A stretch of 64,000 nt of DNA from Alphaproteobacteria bacterium. GTDB taxonomy: Bacteria > Pseudomonadota > Alphaproteobacteria > JAAXGF01. The stretch covers positions 2,144,001 to 2,208,000 of the forward strand of contig CAUVXB020000002.1 of NCBI GenBank assembly GCA_963555825.3, written 5' to 3'. This document shows, in pieces, positions 1,953 through 17,331 of this stretch. The first letter of the stretch is position 1. Each line of letters begins with the position of its first letter. The position numbers and the translations under genes are program-made. The notes under the pieces are model-generated. The model had not been told where the DNA came from. It searched no databases and worked only from the letters and a program-made list of their open reading frames with translations.

Positions 1953-2717
1953 TCAGTTAGCAGTCGGGGTTTGACGCCTGCGGCTCTGGTTGAGCCTGTA
2001 GCTGTCACCGTTCATCTCGAGGATGTTGACGTGGTGGGTGAGGCGATCGAGGAGCGCGCCGGTGAGGCGCTCGGAGCCGAACACCTCGGTCCATTCGTCG
2101 AAGGGCAGATTGGTGGTGACCAGGGTCGAGCCCCGCTCGTAGCGTTGGCTGAACACCTCGAACAACAGCTCGGCGCCGGTCTTCGACAGCGGCACGAAGC
2201 CGAGTTCGTCGACGATCAGAAGCTTGTAGGTGGCGAGCTTCTTCTGGAACCTCAGCAGCTGCTTGTCATCGCGGGCCTCGATGAGTTCGTGGACCAGCGC
2301 GGCGGCGGTGATGAAGCCGACCGAGAGGCCCTTCTGGCAGGCCGCCAGGCCGAGACCGAGGGCGATGTGGGTCTTGCCGGTCCCACTGTTGCCGAGCGCG
2401 ATGAGGTTCTCGCGGCGCTCGATGTACTCGCAGCGGGCCAGCTCCAGGACCAGCGCCTTGTTGAGCGAGGGGATGACCTTGAAGTCGAAGCTGTCGAGGC
2501 TCTTGACCACGGGGAAGCGCGCCGCCTTGATGCGCCGCTCGACCATGCGGCGCTCGCGGTCGATCAGCTCGAGCTCGGCGAGTCTCAACAGGTAGCGGAC
2601 GTGATCGACGCCTTCCGAGGCGCACTGCCGGGCGATCTTGTCGTACTCGCGCAGGAAGGTCGGCAGCTTCAGCGTCTTGAGGTGGTGGGCGAGCAGCACT
2701 TGCGGTGTGTCGGTCAT
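1953..2717 (-). CDS. istB: IS21 helper ATPase
   Basis: Walker A GNSGTGKT, Walker B LLIVDELG, ALLDRLTHH. Confidence 0.95.
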   Translation of the reverse strand: MTDTPQVLLAHHLKTLKLPTFLREYDKIARQCASEGVDHVRYLLRLAELELIDRERRMVERRIKAARFPVVKSLDSFDFKVIPSLNKALVLELARCEYIERRENLIALGNSGTGKTHIALGLGLAACQKGLSVGFITAAALVHELIEARDDKQLLRFQKKLATYKLLIVDELGFVPLSKTGAELLFEVFSQRYERGSTLVTTNLPFDEWTEVFGSERLTGALLDRLTHHVNILEMNGDSYRLNQSRRRQTPTAN

Positions 2718-3399
2718 GCGCCGAGCCCCGACAGCAGGCTCATGTACGACTTGGCGGACGTCATCGCGACCCGGGCGCGCGGCAGATACGGATAGACGTC
2801 GAGGTTGAGCCTGGGCGGCCGCCGCTCGATGCGGCACAGTACCAGGTGCTTCACCGCATCAAAGCCGATTGCGCCGAGCCGCAGGGCGTCGCCGACCGCA
2901 CCCTCGACCTCCTCGAGCCGGAAGGTCTCCAGTAGACGGAGCACCTGGACGTACTCGCGCTTGCCTGCCTTGCCCATACGAGCTTCGAGGAGCCGCCGCA
3001 GAGTGATGAAGGCCTCGGGCAGGTCCCAGCCCGCCAATGGCGCGGCCTGGTCGAGGGCGCCGATCTTCTGCTCGATCAAGGGCAGGTAATGCAGCGGGTC
3101 GAAGATCAGGTCCTCGCTGTCGTAGGACCGGCGGTGCCGGGCGATCACCTCGGCCCCGCAGCTGATCACCACCTCATCGACGTAGCCCCGGATGAGCACC
3201 TCACGGTGGCCGTAGGCCACGGGCACGGAATAGTCGTTGCTGCGGTAACGCACCAGCGACAGCGAACTCGCCCGTCCAGGGCGCTTATCGCAGGCATCAT
3301 AGGGAGCAGGCGGCAATGGCAAGAGAACTTGACGATCCCGCTCGAGACGCTCGCCGATGGTCTCCTTATATGAGGCGTTTGCTGTCAAGGTGGATTTAA

Positions 3400-3682
3400 T
3401 CTACGCCACATGATCGTCTCTTCCATTGGTTATGGCTTTGTATCCAGGGCGGGTCTTGCGATGAGTTCCGTGTTTCGTGCGAGTGATCGCATCACCTTAT
3501 ATCCGGCAGCTCCGATCCGGCTTGCCACAATGCTGTATACATGGACCATCACAGGACGGGGATGGGACTAATCTTGTGGACGGCACCTTCGCCAAGGAGA
3601 CATGCAGTCACACATCCAACCTGCCAACAAGCGTTCCCATCGGGGAATGAAGCCCGTTAGAACGCTGAGCTGATCCGCAGTC
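3400..3682 (-). ncRNA. Predicted bridge/seek RNA of IS1111 element 1 (ends approximate)
   Basis: Target guides at 3593-3601 and 3573-3579 and donor guides at 3530-3534 and 3496-3502, each pair flanking a hairpin. Outer stem GATGGGA (3561-3567) / TCCCATC (3635-3641). Confidence 0.8.
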
Positions 3683-4816
3683 CTATTTGACGACAGCACC
3701 CACCGGGATCAGCCCGGTTTCCAGATACCGCCAAAGCGCGATCGCCAGTTTGCGGGCCAGGGCGACGATCATGACGCGCCTGATGCGCCCCTTCTGACCT
3801 TGGGTGCGGTCATGGAACCACTGGGTCAGAGCGCTATCGGGTTGATGGCGGACCCAAAGCCATGCGGCTTCGATCATGGCAACCCGTGCCAGCCGATTGC
3901 CCGCCTTGGAGATGCCTTGGCTGCGGCGCCCGTCGCCGCTGTCATAGGCACTGGGCGTGATCCCGATATAGCTTGCCACCTGTCGGCGATTGGCGAACTG
4001 GCGATAATAGACTTCCCGTGCGAGCGTCGTGGATAAGGCCGGGCCGAGGCCCTTTAAGCGCAGCAGCTGGTGACGCTTGCTTTCCGTGGCCACACACGGT
4101 GTCGGCGCTTGATCACGCTCACGCTCGACCTCGACGATCTGCGCTTGGACCTGGGCCAGTCTCGCGATCTCCCGCGCGATCTCGCGGCCGAGACGGTCCG
4201 GCAGGGGTCGGCCGTCTCCGGTGACCAGCGCCGCCGGTGTCAAGGTCTTGTAGCGCGCCTTGACATTGATGCCGCGAATGCCCTGACCGAATAGCAGACC
4301 CTTGATCCGGTTGATGTGGGCGGTTCGCTCGCGGACCAATCGGTCACGTTCCCGATGAGAGCGGCGAAGGTCCTCCTCCGCGACGCTCGGAATCACCACC
4401 ATGGAGCAGACATGACGCTCGCCGCGGCACCAGGCGATCAGCGTATGAAGAATATTCTCGACATCGATGCGGTCGGTCTTCACCCGCCGCGCCCGGCGGT
4501 TGACCCGCAAGCTGGCCGGCTCCATGACCAGACACTCGATGCCGCGCTGCTCGAGGAACCGCGCCAACCAGAAGCCGTCGTAGCCGGCCTCGTAGCACAG
4601 CGTTATCGTCGGCGTTCGACCCGTCACCTTGACCACCCGGTCCCGCGCCGCGTCCAGCTTGGCCATCAGTCCTTCAGCGTCGCCGCCCTTGATCGGATGC
4701 AAGCTCGGATTGCCCCGCCCCGGAGCCTGGATCGCCAAAAGCCAGCTGTTCTTGCTCAACTCCAGTGCCGCATAAATAGCGTGTTCATTGGAGGTCGATA
4801 CCGGAAACTGTGCCAT
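3683..4816 (-). CDS. IS110-family recombinase/transposase
   Basis: RuvC-like acidic motifs (ALELSK, CYEAG, KTDRID) and Tnp-domain YDSG / ISKAGN. Confidence 0.93.
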   Translation of the reverse strand: MAQFPVSTSNEHAIYAALELSKNSWLLAIQAPGRGNPSLHPIKGGDAEGLMAKLDAARDRVVKVTGRTPTITLCYEAGYDGFWLARFLEQRGIECLVMEPASLRVNRRARRVKTDRIDVENILHTLIAWCRGERHVCSMVVIPSVAEEDLRRSHRERDRLVRERTAHINRIKGLLFGQGIRGINVKARYKTLTPAALVTGDGRPLPDRLGREIAREIARLAQVQAQIVEVERERDQAPTPCVATESKRHQLLRLKGLGPALSTTLAREVYYRQFANRRQVASYIGITPSAYDSGDGRRSQGISKAGNRLARVAMIEAAWLWVRHQPDSALTQWFHDRTQGQKGRIRRVMIVALARKLAIALWRYLETGLIPVGAVVK

Positions 4817-5854
4817 CGTGTCGCTCCTTCTGATCGAGGTTGAAATAATCGAAGGAGCTTGAGGCTGCGTCCTTCAGCCTCATAGCATCTTGTGGCCCCG
4901 CAGCCGCGCCGCCTGGCGCCGGCGGCACTGTTCGGCGAGAGCATCGTTGAGGGCCGCGAAGCTCTCGGCACGCGGGACGGGGACCAGGAAGTTCCGCCGG
5001 ATGAAGCCGACCAGTCCCTCGACCTTGCCCTTGTCGTTGCCCTTGCCCGGCCGGCCGAACCTGTCCTCGAACAGATAGTGGGACTGAAGCTCCGTGAAGA
5101 CGCGCGTTCGCTGCCGCTTCCCATCGCCCAGGATCCGGGCAACCGCCAGCTTGGTGTTGTCGTATAGGATGGATCGGGGGACGCCGCCGAAGAAGGCAAA
5201 CGCCGCGTTGTGGCCATCGCAGAATGCTTCGGTCGTCTCCGCCGGATAGGCCGCAACAAAGCAACCATCACTGTGGGGAAGGTCGAAGGCAAGGAAGTGG
5301 ATCTTCCGTAACGCGCCGCCGATCACCGCCATCGCTTCGCCGAAGTCCGCCTGGGCGTGACCGGGGGAATGGGAGAGTGGCACGAACACCTCACGCGACC
5401 GAAGCCCCTGCTCACGAACGTAGTCCTTCACGATGGTGTAGCCGCCCGTGAAACCGTACTCGTCCCGGAGGCGGTCGAAGATGCGCTTCGCAGTGTGCCG
5501 TTGCTTGCGGTGGCTGGTCCGATCGTCTTCCAAGATCCGATCGATGATTCCCGTGAACGGACCCAGCTTTGGCCGCCTCGGCGGCGCGCTTCGGCGATAC
5601 CCTGGCGGCACCGAGAACGACAGCATCTTACGGACCGTCTTGCGGTCCACACCAAACACCCGCGAGGCCTCGCGGGTGCTCATCCCCTCGACATGACACG
5701 CCCGCCGAACCCGTGCGTACAACTCCACCCGATACATCCCCCCGCCTTCCAGTCAGAGCAACCCTGACAGAAGGCTATACGCGGTCCCATTTTGGTCCGC
5801 CGCAGCCGGATCGACCGGCCGCTTCAGTGGGGGATTATTGCTCTGCCGTTCTCA

Positions 5855-6487: not shown

Positions 6488-7990
6488 ATGTATCGGGTGG
6501 AGATGTACGCGCGGGTCCGGCGGCGGGCGTGTCGTGTCGAGGGAATGAGCACCCGCGAGGCCTCGCGGGTGTTCGGGCTGGACCGCAAGACGGTACGCAA
6601 GATGCTGTCGTTCTCGGTGCCGCCAGGGTATCGCCGAAGCGCGCCGCCGAGGCGGCCAAAGCTGGGTCCGTTCACGGGAATCATCGATCGGATCTTGGAA
6701 GACGATCGGACCAGCCACCGCAAGCAACGGCACACTGCGAAGCGCATCTTCGACCGCCTCCGGGACGAGTACGGTTTCACGGGCGGCTACACCATCGTGA
6801 AGGACTACGTTCGTGAGCAGGGGCTTCGGTCGCGTGAGGTGTTCGTGCCACTCTCCCATTCCCCCGGTCACGCCCAGGCGGACTTCGGCGAAGCGATGGC
6901 GGTGATCGGCGGCGCGTTACGGAAGATCCACTTCCTTGCCTTCGACCTTCCCCACAGTGATGGTTGCTTTGTTGCGGCCTATCCGGCGGAGACGACCGAA
7001 GCATTCTGCGATGGCCACAACGCGGCGTTTGCCTTCTTCGGCGGCGTCCCCCGATCCATCCTGTACGACAACACCAAGCTGGCGGTTGCCCGGATCCTGG
7101 GCGATGGGAAGCGGCAGCGAACGCGCGTCTTCACGGAGCTTCAGTCCCACTATCTGTTCGAGGACAGGTTCGGCCGGCCGGGCAAGGGCAACGACAAGGG
7201 CAAGGTCGAGGGACTGGTCGGCTTCATCCGGCGGAACTTCCTGGTCCCCGTCCCGCGTGCCGAGAGCTTCGCGGCCCTCAACGATGCTCTCGCCGAACAG
7301 TGCCGCCGGCGCCAGGCGGCGCGGCTGCGGGGCCACAAGGAGACCATCGGCGAGCGTCTCGAGCGGGATCGTCAAGTTCTCTTGCCATTGCCGCCTGCTC
7401 CCTATGATGCCTGCGATAAGCGCCCTGGACGGGCGAGTTCGCTGTCGCTGGTGCGTTACCGCAGCAACGACTATTCCGTGCCCGTGGCCTACGGCCACCG
7501 TGAGGTGCTCATCCGGGGCTACGTCGATGAGGTGGTGATCAGCTGCGGGGCCGAGGTGATCGCCCGGCACCGCCGGTCCTACGACAGCGAGGACCTGATC
7601 TTCGACCCGCTGCATTACCTGCCCTTGATCGAGCAGAAGATCGGCGCCCTCGACCAGGCCGCGCCATTGGCGGGCTGGGACCTGCCCGAGGCCTTCATCA
7701 CTCTGCGGCGGCTCCTCGAAGCTCGTATGGGCAAGGCAGGCAAGCGCGAGTACGTCCAGGTGCTCCGTCTACTGGAGACCTTCCGGCTCGAGGAGGTCGA
7801 GGGTGCGGTCGGCGACGCCCTGCGGCTCGGCGCAATCGGCTTTGATGCGGTGAAGCACCTGGTACTGTGCCGCATCGAGCGGCGGCCGCCCAGGCTCAAC
7901 CTCGACGTCTATCCGTATCTGCCGCGCGCCCGGGTCGCGATGACGTCCGCCAAGTCGTACATGAGCCTGCTGTCGGGGCTCGGCGCATGA
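6488..7990 (+). CDS. istA: IS21 DDE transposase
   Basis: N-terminal HTH, QADFG, LYDN, KGKVEGLV. Overlaps istB by ATGA. Confidence 0.95.
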   Translation: MYRVEMYARVRRRACRVEGMSTREASRVFGLDRKTVRKMLSFSVPPGYRRSAPPRRPKLGPFTGIIDRILEDDRTSHRKQRHTAKRIFDRLRDEYGFTGGYTIVKDYVREQGLRSREVFVPLSHSPGHAQADFGEAMAVIGGALRKIHFLAFDLPHSDGCFVAAYPAETTEAFCDGHNAAFAFFGGVPRSILYDNTKLAVARILGDGKRQRTRVFTELQSHYLFEDRFGRPGKGNDKGKVEGLVGFIRRNFLVPVPRAESFAALNDALAEQCRRRQAARLRGHKETIGERLERDRQVLLPLPPAPYDACDKRPGRASSLSLVRYRSNDYSVPVAYGHREVLIRGYVDEVVISCGAEVIARHRRSYDSEDLIFDPLHYLPLIEQKIGALDQAAPLAGWDLPEAFITLRRLLEARMGKAGKREYVQVLRLLETFRLEEVEGAVGDALRLGAIGFDAVKHLVLCRIERRPPRLNLDVYPYLPRARVAMTSAKSYMSLLSGLGA

Positions 7991-8751
7991 CCGACACACC
8001 GCAAGTGCTGCTCGCCCACCACCTCAAGACGCTGAAGCTGCCGACCTTCCTGCGCGAGTACGACAAGATCGCCCGGCAGTGCGCCTCGGAAGGCGTCGAT
8101 CACGTCCGCTACCTGTTGAGACTCGCCGAGCTCGAGCTGATCGACCGCGAGCGCCGCATGGTCGAGCGGCGCATCAAGGCGGCGCGCTTCCCCGTGGTCA
8201 AGAGCCTCGACAGCTTCGACTTCAAGGTCATCCCCTCGCTCAACAAGGCGCTGGTCCTGGAGCTGGCCCGCTGCGAGTACATCGAGCGCCGCGAGAACCT
8301 CATCGCGCTCGGCAACAGTGGGACCGGCAAGACCCACATCGCCCTCGGTCTCGGCCTGGCGGCCTGCCAGAAGGGCCTCTCGGTCGGCTTCATCACCGCC
8401 GCCGCGCTGGTCCACGAACTCATCGAGGCCCGCGATGACAAGCAGCTGCTGAGGTTCCAGAAGAAGCTCGCCACCTACAAGCTTCTGATCGTCGACGAAC
8501 TCGGCTTCGTGCCGCTGTCGAAGACCGGCGCCGAGCTGTTGTTCGAGGTGTTCAGCCAACGCTACGAGCGGGGCTCGACCCTGGTCACCACCAATCTGCC
8601 CTTCGACGAATGGACCGAGGTGTTCGGCTCCGAGCGCCTCACCGGCGCGCTCCTCGATCGCCTCACCCACCACGTCAACATCCTCGAGATGAACGGTGAC
8701 AGCTACAGGCTCAACCAGAGCCGCAGGCGTCAAACCCCGACTGCTAACTGA
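7987..8751 (+). CDS. istB: IS21 helper ATPase
   Basis: Same protein as the other copies, with Walker A and B motifs. Confidence 0.95.
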   Translation: MTDTPQVLLAHHLKTLKLPTFLREYDKIARQCASEGVDHVRYLLRLAELELIDRERRMVERRIKAARFPVVKSLDSFDFKVIPSLNKALVLELARCEYIERRENLIALGNSGTGKTHIALGLGLAACQKGLSVGFITAAALVHELIEARDDKQLLRFQKKLATYKLLIVDELGFVPLSKTGAELLFEVFSQRYERGSTLVTTNLPFDEWTEVFGSERLTGALLDRLTHHVNILEMNGDSYRLNQSRRRQTPTAN

Positions 8752-15835: not shown

Positions 15836-17331
15836 GCGCCGAGCCCCGACAGCAGGCTCATGTACGACTTGGCGGACGTCATCGCGACCCGGGCGCGCGG
15901 CAGATACGGATAGACGTCGAGGTTGAGCCTGGGCGGCCGCCGCTCGATGCGGCACAGTACCAGGTGCTTCACCGCATCAAAGCCGATTGCGCCGAGCCGC
16001 AGGGCGTCGCCGACCGCACCCTCGACCTCCTCGAGCCGGAAGGTCTCCAGTAGACGGAGCACCTGGACGTACTCGCGCTTGCCTGCCTTGCCCATACGAG
16101 CTTCGAGGAGCCGCCGCAGAGTGATGAAGGCCTCGGGCAGGTCCCAGCCCGCCAATGGCGCGGCCTGGTCGAGGGCGCCGATCTTCTGCTCGATCAAGGG
16201 CAGGTAATGCAGCGGGTCGAAGATCAGGTCCTCGCTGTCGTAGGACCGGCGGTGCCGGGCGATCACCTCGGCCCCGCAGCTGATCACCACCTCATCGACG
16301 TAGCCCCGGATGAGCACCTCACGGTGGCCGTAGGCCACGGGCACGGAATAGTCGTTGCTGCGGTAACGCACCAGCGACAGCGAACTCGCCCGTCCAGGGC
16401 GCTTATCGCAGGCATCATAGGGAGCAGGCGGCAATGGCAAGAGAACTTGACGATCCCGCTCGAGACGCTCGCCGATGGTCTCCTTGTGGCCCCGCAGCCG
16501 CGCCGCCTGGCGCCGGCGGCACTGTTCGGCGAGAGCATCGTTGAGGGCCGCGAAGCTCTCGGCACGCGGGACGGGGACCAGGAAGTTCCGCCGGATGAAG
16601 CCGACCAGTCCCTCGACCTTGCCCTTGTCGTTGCCCTTGCCCGGCCGGCCGAACCTGTCCTCGAACAGATAGTGGGACTGAAGCTCCGTGAAGACGCGCG
16701 TTCGCTGCCGCTTCCCATCGCCCAGGATCCGGGCAACCGCCAGCTTGGTGTTGTCGTACAGGATGGATCGGGGGACGCCGCCGAAGAAGGCAAACGCCGC
16801 GTTGTGGCCATCGCAGAATGCTTCGGTCGTCTCCGCCGGATAGGCCGCAACAAAGCAACCATCACTGTGGGGAAGGTCGAAGGCAAGGAAGTGGATCTTC
16901 CGTAACGCGCCGCCGATCACCGCCATCGCTTCGCCGAAGTCCGCCTGGGCGTGACCGGGGGAATGGGAGAGTGGCACGAACACCTCACGCGACCGAAGCC
17001 CCTGCTCACGAACGTAGTCCTTCACGATGGTGTAGCCGCCCGTGAAACCGTACTCGTCCCGGAGGCGGTCGAAGATGCGCTTCGCAGTGTGCCGTTGCTT
17101 GCGGTGGCTGGTCCGATCGTCTTCCAAGATCCGATCGATGATTCCCGTGAACGGACCCAGCTTTGGCCGCCTCGGCGGCGCGCTTCGGCGATACCCTGGC
17201 GGCACCGAGAACGACAGCATCTTACGGACCGTCTTGCGGTCTACACCAAACACCCGCGAGGCCTCGCGGGTGCTCATCCCCTCGACATGACACGCCCGCC
17301 GAACCCGTGCGTACAACTCCACCCGATACAT
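15832..17331 (-). CDS. istA: IS21 DDE transposase
   Basis: Full-length, near-identical to 6488-7990. Confidence 0.95.
   Translation of the reverse strand: MYRVELYARVRRACHVEGMSTREASRVFGVDRKTVRKMLSFSVPPGYRRSAPPRRPKLGPFTGIIDRILEDDRTSHRKQRHTAKRIFDRLRDEYGFTGGYTIVKDYVREQGLRSREVFVPLSHSPGHAQADFGEAMAVIGGALRKIHFLAFDLPHSDGCFVAAYPAETTEAFCDGHNAAFAFFGGVPRSILYDNTKLAVARILGDGKRQRTRVFTELQSHYLFEDRFGRPGKGNDKGKVEGLVGFIRRNFLVPVPRAESFAALNDALAEQCRRRQAARLRGHKETIGERLERDRQVLLPLPPAPYDACDKRPGRASSLSLVRYRSNDYSVPVAYGHREVLIRGYVDEVVISCGAEVIARHRRSYDSEDLIFDPLHYLPLIEQKIGALDQAAPLAGWDLPEAFITLRRLLEARMGKAGKREYVQVLRLLETFRLEEVEGAVGDALRLGAIGFDAVKHLVLCRIERRPPRLNLDVYPYLPRARVAMTSAKSYMSLLSGLGA

What the first reader, a model, noticed from the sequence alone, without database searches (positions are those of the whole stretch)
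3365..4891. IS1111 element 1 has a readable bridge RNA whose guides match its insertion site inside an IS21 transposase
Seen: removing the element restores GGTCTC-CT-TGTGGCC, and its circular donor junction would be TAGCAT-CT-TATATG. The 3' non-coding region, read on the minus strand, contains GUCUCCUUG (3601-3593, equal to the left target) and CCACAAG (3579-3573, complementary to the right target) around a GGC/GCC hairpin. It then has AGCAU (3534-3530) and AUAUAAG (3502-3496), matching the donor halves around a second hairpin. Established: this is the target-loop/donor-loop architecture of IS110/IS1111 bridge (seek) RNAs with a CT core. Inference: this is a natural RNA-guided recombinase orthologue with a directly predictable specificity. 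Two empty target sites remain in the window (7333-7344 and 16478-16489). The first RuvC acidic residue is Glu (ALELSK).
Basis: partly seen in the sequence, partly recalled or inferred. Interest (0 to 1): 0.85.

Follow-up and report, generated by a model that had tools for sequence, protein, structure and literature searches.

The report
IS1111-type insertion sequence with bridge RNA
This is a recently active IS110/IS1111-type jumping gene whose own non-coding RNA spells out both its insertion site and its own ends, a mechanism described in 2024, so it is a well-supported but ordinary new example.

Summary
Observation confirmed. A 1524-bp element (window 3367-4890, CT at both junctions) interrupts an IS21 istA gene.

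It encodes a 377-aa IS110-family transposase on the minus strand. Its 316-nt 3' non-coding region holds an RNA of about 175 nt (3620 to about 3447, minus strand) with two internal loops.

- **Structure:** across 57 distinct homologous RNAs, 92.9% of cells pair, against 33.5-42.8% in slid controls. 28 of 36 pairs show double changes.
- **Target guides:** they track the flanks of homologues; 0 of 20000 shuffles reach the observed match on either side.
- **Donor guides:** they track the element ends.
- **Own genome:** 11 full copies lie in 5 distinct sites that share GTCTC-CT-TGTGG.

Corrections:
- The UG after the core in the left guide is conserved structure, not guide.
- The genome holds 69 empty exact sites, not two.
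- The first catalytic residue is Glu in 62 of 62 relatives.

Transcription is not shown. Bridge/seek RNAs of IS1111 elements are published (PMC11187229, PMC11208160), so this is a new member of a known kind, of moderate to low interest.

The parts
3367..4890 (-). Whole insertion sequence, 1524 bp. The CT core at 3365-3366 and 4889-4890 makes the boundary ambiguous by 2 nt.
   Evidence: 11 full-length copies in the genome, 8 of them 100% identical, end exactly here; a joint skipping 1524 bases.
3683..4816 (-). Transposase/recombinase gene, 377 aa. Predicted catalytic residues E19, E76, D115, D118 and S293-G294.
   Evidence: ORF; PF01548, PF02371; NF033542, 204.4 bits, cut-off 140; residues.
4877..4883 (.). 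Subterminal inverted repeat at the transposase-proximal (5') end: GCCTCAT on the + strand, 5 nt inside the end.
   Evidence: 7 of 7 complementary to 3370-3376.
3370..3376 (.). Subterminal inverted repeat at the 3' end: ATGAGGC on the + strand, 3 nt inside the end.
3447..3620 (-). Predicted bridge (long seek) RNA, about 174 nt, two domains. The ends are inferred from conservation and helices, not mapped.
   Evidence: Covariance model R1 hits 3448-3620 at 203.9 bits. Structure counts.
3560..3617 (-). Target-binding domain. Base stem P1 is 3617-3606 with 3569-3560; it encloses the internal loop and the apical hairpin.
   Evidence: helix 1 has 10 pairs, 7 with double changes, 95.9% paired.
3595..3601 (-). 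5' target guide GUCUCCU. It is identical to the + strand at 3360-3366 and pairs with the other strand of left target plus core.
3582..3593 (-). Apical hairpin P2 of the target loop (GGC GAAGGU GCC).
   Evidence: helix 2, 97.1% paired, 1 of 3 pairs with double changes.
3573..3579 (-). 3' target guide CCACAAG, complementary to + strand CTTGTGG (core plus right target, 4889-4895).
3458..3552 (-). Donor-binding domain. Closing stem P3 is 3552-3543 with 3469-3458.
   Evidence: helices 3 and 4, 10 of 10 pairs with double changes, 81.7% and 86.2% paired.
3530..3534 (-). 5' donor guide AGCAU, identical to + strand AGCAT at 4884-4888 (the element end next to the transposase start).
3505..3526 (-). Apical hairpin P4 of the donor loop.
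   Evidence: helices 5 and 6, 96.8% and 98.2% paired, 5 of 8 pairs with double changes.
3496..3502 (-). 3' donor guide AUAUAAG, complementary to + strand CTTATAT (core plus the other element end, 3365-3371).
   Evidence: three guide states match three end states in homologues.
3478..3491 (-). Hairpin P5, 3' of the donor loop.
   Evidence: helix 7, 5 of 5 pairs with double changes, 94.1% paired.
3359..3366 (.). Left target half GGTCTC plus core CT, inside the IS21 istA gene.
4889..4897 (.). Core CT plus right target half TGTGGCC, inside the IS21 istA gene.
7333..7344 (-). Empty exact target site in an intact IS21 istA gene.
16478..16489 (+). Empty exact target site in another IS21 copy.

Best explanation
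An IS110-family insertion sequence of the IS1111 type. Its 3' non-coding region is transcribed with, or just after, the transposase gene. It folds into a bridge (long seek) RNA of about 175 nt with two internal loops.

Loop 1 pairs with both strands of the 12-14-bp target GTCTC-CT-TGTGG. Loop 2 pairs with the two element ends as joined in the excised circle (AGCAT-CT-TATAT). The RuvC-like/Ser recombinase then exchanges strands at the CT core, which places the element in one orientation with no duplication beyond the shared core.

Shown here:
- the anatomy of the element;
- five insertion sites in the genome;
- covariation of the stems;
- covariation of guides with flanks and with ends.

Inferred:
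- that the RNA is made and is bound by the protein;
- that a circle forms;
- that a promoter is assembled at the circle junction (a TTGACA lies 17 nt before GATGCT only when the ends are joined);
- the chemistry of strand exchange.
For: **Anatomy**
- Searches give the element, the ORF and the split IS21 gene.
- Protein family: PF01548 and PF02371. NF033542 'IS110 family RNA-guided transposase' scores 204.4 bits against a cut-off of 140.
- hhalign to the IS4321 transposase: probability 98.7%, 330 aligned columns. E19, E76, D115, D118 and S293 lie on its D, E, D, D and T.

**Insertion sites in the own genome**
- 11 full-length copies at 99.9-100% identity.
- 7 lie in the same IS21 site and 4 in unrelated sites. 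All read (A)TGTCTC-CT / T(G/A)TG(G/A).

**Chance**
- Both target 7-mers occur in 75 of 200000 shuffles of the non-coding region; all four strings occur in 1.

**RNA structure**
- RNAalifold on a MAFFT alignment of 43 RNAs recovers the loop-1 base stem. 9 of 12 predicted pairs have compensatory changes.
- Hand structure on the model-fitted alignment of 57 distinct RNAs: 92.9% of cells paired against 33.5-42.8% when slid. 28 of 36 pairs have double changes. 0 of 500 shuffles reach any measure.
- G-U pairs are tolerated, as expected for RNA read from this strand.

**Target guides against flanks**
- Left flank: 53 unique elements with 36 distinct 7-mers. 24 match perfectly, 15 have one mismatch, 14 are worse. 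Mean 6.15 against 5.12 shuffled; 0 of 20000 shuffles reach it.
- Right flank: 36 unique elements with 26 distinct 7-mers. 13 perfect, 14 with one mismatch, 9 worse. Mean 6.08 against 5.22; 0 of 20000.
- The best matches sit at a constant place in the RNA.

**Donor guides**
- The 3' guide states ATATAAG, ATATGAG and ATACGAG go with ends ...ATATAAG (26), ...ATATGAG (13) and ...ATACGAG (1).
- The 5' guide against the first 5 nt of the other end, 36 elements: mean 4.31 Watson-Crick pairs of 5, against 3.74 shuffled; 0 of 20000.

**Literature**
- PMC11187229 (sections 6, 8, 9, 12-14 read) and PMC11208160 (passages) describe this mechanism for IS1111 and IS110 elements.
Against: - **No direct evidence of the RNA.** The only RNA data are contigs assembled from four metatranscriptome runs of one study. 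They cover the region but cannot show strand, ends or even transcription.
- **No promoter.** No sigma-70-like promoter is predicted inside the element (0 sites).
- **Folding energy is no better than shuffles.** z = +0.87 for the 316 nt, with 83 of 100 shuffles folding as well. z = +1.19 for the 174 nt, with 178 of 200.
- **No Rfam family matches.** The best E-value is 5.4.
- **The structure alignment was fitted to the model.** It therefore leans towards the structure.
- **The 5' donor guide is weak.** It is only 5 nt and has exceptions. 14 of 36 elements have a true mismatch. Few independent state changes underlie the donor covariation, and relatedness inflates shuffle tests.
- **Flank boundaries were found by motif rules.** 14 of 53 left flanks and 9 of 36 right flanks match poorly, partly from mis-set boundaries.
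- **The seven IS21-borne copies may not be independent.** They could be copies of one insertion spread by IS21 itself, which would leave five independent sites.
Confidence: 0.9

Rival explanations
1. Target-only seekRNA. Only the first domain, a short seekRNA of about 65-100 nt, guides the reaction. It recognises the target both at the new site and flanking the donor copy. The second domain is a precursor or scaffold, and its matches to the element ends are not used as guides.
For: - PMC11187229, sections 8 and 14: the abundant 70-100-nt seekRNA holds the target matches and sufficed for ISEc11. The donor had to be flanked by the target.
- Here the 5' donor guide is only 5 nt and has mismatches in 14 of 36 homologues.
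- The donor strings are nearly invariant among close relatives, so they carry little information.
Against: - The 3' donor guide changes together with the element end in three states.
- The 5' donor guide follows ATGCT, ATCCT and ATTCC ends.
- The two loops have the same geometry.
- The donor-domain stems covary as strongly as the target domain (helices 3-7).
- PMC11208160 (passages) reports donor loops and predicts bridge RNAs in 93.0% of ISfinder IS1111 elements.
Confidence: 0.08
2. No RNA guide. The internal copies of target and end sequences are DNA sites, for example transposase-binding repeats or relics of nested ends, and the protein reads the target directly.
For: - Transcription is not shown.
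- No internal promoter is found.
- Folding energy is not better than shuffles.
- Covariation of internal strings with flanks would also arise for DNA-level pairing.
Against: - 28 of 36 helix pairs show compensatory changes, with G-U pairs tolerated on this strand only.
- One guide of each loop is sense and the other antisense to the same duplex. That fits pairing with both strands, not a repeated protein site.
- The protein matches NCBI's 'IS110 family RNA-guided transposase' model.
- Experiments on relatives show an RNA (PMC11187229).
Confidence: 0.015
3. Chance resemblance in an otherwise ordinary 3' untranslated region.
For: The strings are short (5-9 nt). The UG extension of the left guide is indeed coincidental.
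Against: - All four strings together arise in 1 of 200000 shuffles.
- Covariation with flanks holds across homologues.
- Five sites in the genome share the 12-nt consensus.
Confidence: 0.005

Closest known systems
IS1111-family elements with a 3' seekRNA (ISEc11, ISPa11, ISKpn4; Siddiquee et al. 2024, PMC11187229)
   Same: - The long non-coding region lies downstream of the transposase gene (316 nt against 74 nt upstream).
- Subterminal inverted repeats are present.
- There is no duplication beyond the shared core.
- Read in the gene's direction, the match to the top strand lies 5' of the match to the bottom strand.
- The predicted RNA (about 175 nt) is near the reported 'long seekRNA' of 145-170 nt.
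- The C-terminal motif is G(I/L)xPxxxxSG.
- The target lies inside another insertion sequence's transposase gene. That was reported for ISEc21, an IS110-type element that targets IS3-family genes.
   Different: - The transposase is 377 aa, against the 330-350 aa given for IS1111 transposases.
- It is only about 24% identical to IS4321.
- The first catalytic residue is Glu, not Asp, in all 62 relatives seen.
- The inverted repeat is at the short end of the range (7 bp).
- None of the RNA, circle or transposition work has been done for this element.
IS621 bridge RNA and recombinase (IS110 group; Durrant et al. 2024, PMC11208160; structures 8WT6-8WT9)
   Same: - Two internal loops, one for the target and one for the donor.
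- A CT core is included in the pairings.
[quoted passage not shown]
- The RNA length is similar.
- The C-terminal domain aligns to IS621.
   Different: - The RNA lies downstream, not upstream, of the gene.
- The gene and RNA are read opposite to the CT-core orientation.
- Only the C-terminal half aligns by sequence to IS621 (E 3.9e-12 with a profile).
- The inverted repeats are longer.
- The 5' donor guide does not cover the core by Watson-Crick pairs (AGCAU-UG against AGCAT-CT).
Closest relatives found here (L022-L030, alphaproteobacterial genome bins, transposase 75-89% identical)
   Same: Same ends (ATGCT... / ...CATATAAG), same donor guides and same RNA structure.
   Different: Their target guides differ (GUCCGCU, GUCGACU or GGUAGCU; CCAAAAG, GGUAGAG, GGUAAAG and others) and so do their flanks. 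This is natural reprogramming. Their common target is a hairpin-forming repeat, not IS21.

Membership tests
IS110 family (RNA-guided DEDD transposases) | Protein matches the curated family models above their cut-offs. | tested here: met
   NF033542 scores 204.4 bits (cut-off 140) over residues 15-368. PF02371 scores 60.9 bits and PF01548 scores 38.7 bits, both above cut-off.
IS110 family (RNA-guided DEDD transposases) | Four acidic residues of the RuvC-like domain plus the C-terminal Ser/Thr-Gly. | tested here: met
   E19, E76 and D118 are invariant; D115 is conserved in 90% or more; S293-G294 are invariant in 34 sequences. They align with D, E, D, D and TG of the IS4321 transposase. The first residue is Glu instead of Asp (62 of 62). 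Positions in a structure were not checked.
IS110 family (RNA-guided DEDD transposases) | Site-specific, orientation-specific insertion without a target duplication other than the shared core. | tested here: met
   All 11 copies share the consensus target in one orientation. Excision in silico restores the intact IS21 site. An empty-site joint is seen in contigs.
IS1111 group | Subterminal inverted repeats of 7-17 bp. | tested here: met
   ATGAGGC (3370-3376) and GCCTCAT (4877-4883), 7 of 7, lie 3 and 5 nt inside the ends. The range is taken from PMC11208160.
IS1111 group | Longer non-coding region, and the RNA, downstream of the transposase gene. | tested here: met
   316 nt downstream against 74 nt upstream. 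The RNA model hit is at 3448-3620.
IS1111 group | Transposase related over its full length to IS1111-group transposases. | tested here: met
   hhalign to the IS4321-family transposase gives probability 98.7% over 330 columns (7-372 against 3-336 of 346). IS621 and ISCro4 (IS110 group) align over the C-terminal half only. IS1111 itself was not compared and no tree was built.
IS1111 group | Typical (descriptive, not defining) transposase length of 330-350 aa. | tested here: not met
   377 aa here and 376-392 aa in the relatives. The range comes from PMC11187229, section 6.
IS1111 group | Placement inside the IS1111 clade in a tree of ISfinder transposases. | not tested
   No ISfinder sequences are available in the tools.
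Bridge RNA / seekRNA | Structured RNA with two internal loops closed by conserved stems. | tested here: met
   7 helices and 36 pairs, 92.9% paired, 28 pairs with double changes. An independent RNAalifold run recovers helix 1.
Bridge RNA / seekRNA | Loop 1 carries one segment for each strand of the target, overlapping at the core, and these covary with targets among orthologues. | tested here: met
   (0 of 20000 shuffles on either side).
Bridge RNA / seekRNA | Loop 2 carries segments for the two element ends, and these covary with them. | tested here: met
   The 3' guide is clean in three states. The 5' guide is significant but has 14 of 36 elements with a mismatch.
Bridge RNA / seekRNA | The RNA is expressed and bound by the transposase. 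| tested here: inconclusive
   Contigs from four RNA libraries of one study cover the region. They cannot show transcription, strand or ends. Binding is not testable here.
Bridge RNA / seekRNA | Changing the guides changes the target. | not testable with these tools
   Only natural reprogramming among relatives was seen.

The most novel reading that the evidence does not exclude
This element stands for a distinct alphaproteobacterial branch of IS1111-type bridge recombinases, with three proposed features.
1. The first catalytic Asp is replaced by an invariant Glu (an 'EEDD' site) and the protein carries about 30-40 extra residues.
2. The gene and RNA are read opposite to the CT-core orientation, while the RNA keeps the IS621-like left-guide/right-guide order.
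3. The RNA can be extended modularly. One relative (L038) carries two tandem target-binding domains with different guides, which would be a natural dual-target bridge RNA.
Probability: 0.3. Interest if true: 0.45.

Novelty: new member of a known kind. Interest (0 to 1): 0.3.

Why it matters
It adds one more natural RNA-guided recombinase whose target (GTCTC-CT-TGTGG) and donor (AGCAT-CT-TATAT) can be read straight from the sequence.

It has an unusually complete natural record in one genome:
- 11 near-identical copies;
- five distinct occupied sites;
- 69 empty sites;
- paralogous empty sites for two of the non-IS21 insertions.

The set of about 50 relatives with different guides is a ready-made series of natural reprogramming. 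It could serve to choose orthologues or to study mismatch tolerance.

The conserved Glu at the first catalytic position, and the two-target-loop relative, are small new points. The mechanism itself has been in print since 2024, so a specialist would not be surprised.

Tried and rejected
- **Rfam**: no family matched. The four listed matches had E >= 5.4 and lay far below their gathering scores.
- **Folding energy**: not better than shuffles, so stability alone says nothing here.
- **Promoter scan**: no promoter found. The single terminator-like site lies on the + strand across the left junction and is not meaningful.
- **RNAalifold on the plain MAFFT alignment**: it found only 12 pairs, because the variable hairpins were misaligned. 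I therefore wrote a structure by hand from the window's fold and the relatives and used a covariance model.
- **Generic search for subterminal inverted repeats**: too noisy. A first motif-based boundary finder picked the internal donor guide as the element end in six loci. This was corrected.
- **Copy-to-copy boundary finding**: it worked for some groups. It overran where the target is itself a repeat (the L059 and L075 groups).
- **RNA libraries**: only contigs were available.
  - The apparent contig breaks at 3447 and 3476 are assembly branch points, not RNA ends.
  - Parts of the transposase gene without cover in X3 and X4 are not evidence of anything.
- **PDB sequence searches**: only the C-terminal half aligned, so they could not place E19. 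I used hhalign to an IS4321-family transposase from a plasmid record instead.
- **Structure prediction**: not run, because the tools return no coordinates to measure an active site.
- **Independence of the seven IS21-borne copies**: I asked whether they are independent insertions. The IS21 halves around them have the majority IS21 haplotype, which does not decide it.
- **Reading the element as a dedicated 'killer' of IS21**: not favoured. The RNA's AUGUCUCCU matches three non-IS21 sites better on the left than the IS21 site. About 9 IS21 copies are interrupted at this site, against 64 uninterrupted full-length copies.
- **Supplementary files of papers**: closed. Supplementary Table 5 of PMC11208160 and the supplementary figures of PMC11187229 may list this element or close relatives, and I could not see them.
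- **Subsets given to calls**:
  - One search used 43 of the 58 unique non-coding regions.
  - One search used 60 of 81 sources (the window plus 80 loci). Duplicates of multi-copy groups and loci with too little downstream DNA were left out.
  - One search used 63 of 81 sources.
  - In one search, duplicates and elements without a determinable flank were dropped.
  - In the left-flank test, the last two letters (AG) were fixed by the boundary rule for real and shuffled pairs alike. Only the last 175 nt of each RNA region were searched, which is why L038 scored 5.


Full report
**What is there**

Window 3367-4890 is a 1524-bp insertion sequence. It sits between GGTCTC-CT and (CT)-TGTGGCC, and the CT dinucleotide is present at both junctions.

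It splits an IS21 istA gene on the minus strand. The pieces are 2714-3388 and 4880-5737. The intact copy at 6488-7990 reads ...RLRGHKETIGERL... across the same point.

The element carries one ORF on the minus strand (3683-4816, 377 aa). This leaves 74 nt of non-coding DNA before the ORF and 316 nt after it.

A 7-bp subterminal inverted repeat lies 3 and 5 nt inside the ends: ATGAGGC at 3370-3376 and GCCTCAT at 4877-4883.

**The protein**

- It matches PF02371 and PF01548.
- It matches NCBI's equivalog NF033542, 'IS110 family RNA-guided transposase', at 204.4 bits against a cut-off of 140.
- In 34 aligned relatives, E19, E76, D118 and S293-G294 are invariant, and D115 is conserved in at least 90%.
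- A profile of these relatives aligns over 330 columns with an IS4321-family transposase from a plasmid record. IS4321 is an IS1111-group element. The probability is 98.7%.
- In that alignment, AiELSK lies on GIDLGK, so E19 takes the place of the first Asp of the DEDD set. Glu is present in 62 of 62 relatives that cover the position.
- Against solved structures, only the C-terminal half aligns, to ISCro4 and IS621.

**Copies and sites in the same genome**

The genome has 11 full-length copies, 8 of them 100% identical, plus fragments.

Seven copies lie in the same IS21 site. Four lie in unrelated sequence, with these flanks:
- tatGTCTCCT / TATGGct
- gatGTCTCCT / TGTGAtg
- ctcGTCTCCT / TGTGGac
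- aatGTCTCCT / TGTGAcc

That gives at least five independent insertions into GTCTC-CT-TGTGG, all in one orientation.

The exact 12-mer occurs 69 times in the genome, against 0.75 expected, and always in the IS21 context. Two of these are in the window. The genome holds 64 uninterrupted full-length istA copies.

Two of the non-IS21 insertions have paralogous empty sites elsewhere, at C2:859664 and C2:2412047.

**The RNA**

I collected 80 loci encoding relatives of the transposase, 49-89% identical, mostly from alphaproteobacterial genome bins.

Their 3' non-coding regions align. They show conserved stems around variable loop segments.

RNAalifold on a plain alignment of 43 regions recovers the base stem of the first loop. 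9 of its 12 predicted pairs have compensatory changes.

I wrote a seven-helix structure from the window's fold and the relatives. I then built a covariance model from the window and seven close relatives.
- It found 58 matches in 60 sources, and one in the window at 3448-3620 on the minus strand.
- It found 14 matches in the genome.

On the resulting alignment of 57 distinct rows:
- 92.9% of cells form pairs, against 33.5-42.8% with the partners slid;
- 28 of 36 pairs have changes on both sides;
- no shuffle in 500 reaches any measure.

This alignment is fitted to the model, which favours the structure. The size of the effect and the independent result argue that the structure is real. Folding energy alone is not better than shuffles.

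**Layout of the RNA**

- Domain 1 runs from 3617 to 3560. It has a base stem and an internal loop, with GUCUCCU on the 5' side and CCACAAG on the 3' side, around a GGC/GCC hairpin.
- Domain 2 runs from 3552 to 3458. It has a closing stem and a loop, with AGCAU on the 5' side and AUAUAAG on the 3' side, around a longer hairpin. A further hairpin follows.

**Guides against DNA in relatives**

Among close relatives, the 5' target guide changes to GUCCGCU, GUCGACU or GGUAGCU. The right flank then reads AGCGGAC, AGCCGAC or AGCTGCC.

The 3' target guide changes to CCAAAAG, GGUAGAG, GGUAAAG, CCCUGAG or CCGCGAG. The left flank ends with the same letters.

I set element boundaries by end motifs, by the inverted repeat and, where possible, by copy-to-copy comparison.

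| Flank | Unique elements | Distinct 7-mers | Perfect | One mismatch | Worse | Mean score | Shuffled mean | Shuffles reaching it |
|---|---|---|---|---|---|---|---|---|
| Left | 53 | 36 | 24 | 15 | 14 | 6.15 | 5.12 | 0 of 20000 |
| Right | 36 | 26 | 13 | 14 | 9 | 6.08 | 5.22 | 0 of 20000 |

The best matches fall at a constant distance from the donor loop.

For the donor guides:
- The 3' guide has three states, ATATAAG, ATATGAG and ATACGAG. Each is found with the same end sequence. A group of 11 has a right core of AA instead of AG, and one element has a single mismatch.
- The 5' guide follows the first five bases of the other end: AGCAU with ATGCT, AGGAU with ATCCT, GGAAU with ATTCC.
- 14 of 36 elements have one true mismatch in that guide.
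- The mean is 4.31 Watson-Crick pairs of 5, against 3.74 shuffled. No shuffle in 20000 reaches it.

The letters UG that follow the core in the window's 5' target guide are part of a CUUGG motif. Relatives with other targets keep this motif, so they are not guide.

**How it compares with what is known**

PMC11187229 (sections 6, 8, 9 and 12-14 read) shows the following for IS1111-family elements:
- The long non-coding region is downstream of the gene.
- An RNA from it co-purifies with the transposase and is essential.
- It holds one match to each target strand, the top-strand match lying 5' of the bottom-strand match.
- A long form of 145-170 nt and a short form of 70-100 nt exist.
- No promoter is seen other than the one formed at the circle junction.

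PMC11208160 (passages) describes the two-loop bridge RNA of IS621, with the CT core included in each pairing. It predicts bridge RNAs in the right end of 93.0% of ISfinder IS1111 elements.

The element here fits both descriptions. Read in the gene's direction, the 5' guide pairs with the top strand. [quoted passage not shown] Gene and RNA are therefore oriented opposite to the CT core.

In the joined ends, a TTGACA would stand 17 nt before GATGCT. On the + strand it reads TGTCAA at 3383-3388, and it is conserved in relatives. This is my reading, not a tool result.

**Expression**

Four metatranscriptome runs of one study hold contigs that cover the non-coding region. The records span 3447-4002, 3447-4184, 3360-3748 and 3473-3818. 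The same runs also hold the uninterrupted IS21 site. Contigs cannot show that the region is transcribed, from which strand, or where an RNA ends.

**Verdict**

This is a recently active IS110-family element of the IS1111 type with a readable bridge RNA. It is a new member of a known kind.

Three points are mildly new: the invariant Glu at the first catalytic position, the longer protein, and a relative (L038) with two target-binding domains. Function remains to be shown at the bench.

Noticed in passing
window 6488-8751, 1953-5737 and 16478-16489; genome-wide: The host genome carries a very large expansion of one IS21 element. There are 64 uninterrupted full-length istA matches plus many fragments, and about 9 copies are interrupted at the bridge-RNA target site. 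All 69 exact target 12-mers lie in IS21.
   Followed up: partly
L038:2654-2722 and L038:2789-2854: One relative has two tandem target-binding-loop domains, scoring 51.1 and 69.5 bits with the domain-only model R2. It was the only one among 63 sources. Its own left flank ...CGTGGAG matches the 3' guide of the upstream loop. The downstream loop's guide CCCGGAG matches the flank of relative L051. This may be a natural dual-target RNA.
   Followed up: partly
L022, L025, L026, L030 left and right flanks; L075 and L089 groups, right flank: The close relatives insert into a hairpin-forming repeat (GTCCGCTTT...AAAGCGGAC). The L075 and L089 groups insert next to a repeated palindromic unit, GGTGGGCAAAGCGAAGCGTGCCCAC. 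Their targets are REP-like elements rather than IS21.
   Followed up: no
window about 3624-3660 (minus strand): A covarying hairpin (CAAC...GUUG) lies between the transposase stop codon and the first RNA domain. It is conserved in the close relatives. Its role is unknown; it could be a processing site or the 5' part of the long RNA.
   Followed up: no
window 3383-3388 (+ strand TGTCAA): A perfect -35 hexamer TTGACA in the 3' end of the element is conserved in relatives. It would stand 17 nt before GATGCT only when the two ends are joined in a circle. This would be a junction promoter, as described for other family members. Read by eye.
   Followed up: partly
L039-L052 group: In 11 elements the dinucleotide after the right end is AA while the one before the left end is AG, and the 3' donor guide still reads ...AAG. 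The two cores of an inserted copy therefore differ.
   Followed up: no
G000:C1:1251385-1251551 and G000:C2:2829434-2829593 (outside the window): The genome also holds a solitary, diverged copy of the RNA region next to an IS21 half (155.3 bits). It holds a distant second member of the RNA family as well (45.8 bits), near weak transposase matches.
   Followed up: no
L045:3589-3768 (minus strand): A second, different element of the same family lies about 750 nt from the first on the opposite strand of the same contig.
   Followed up: no
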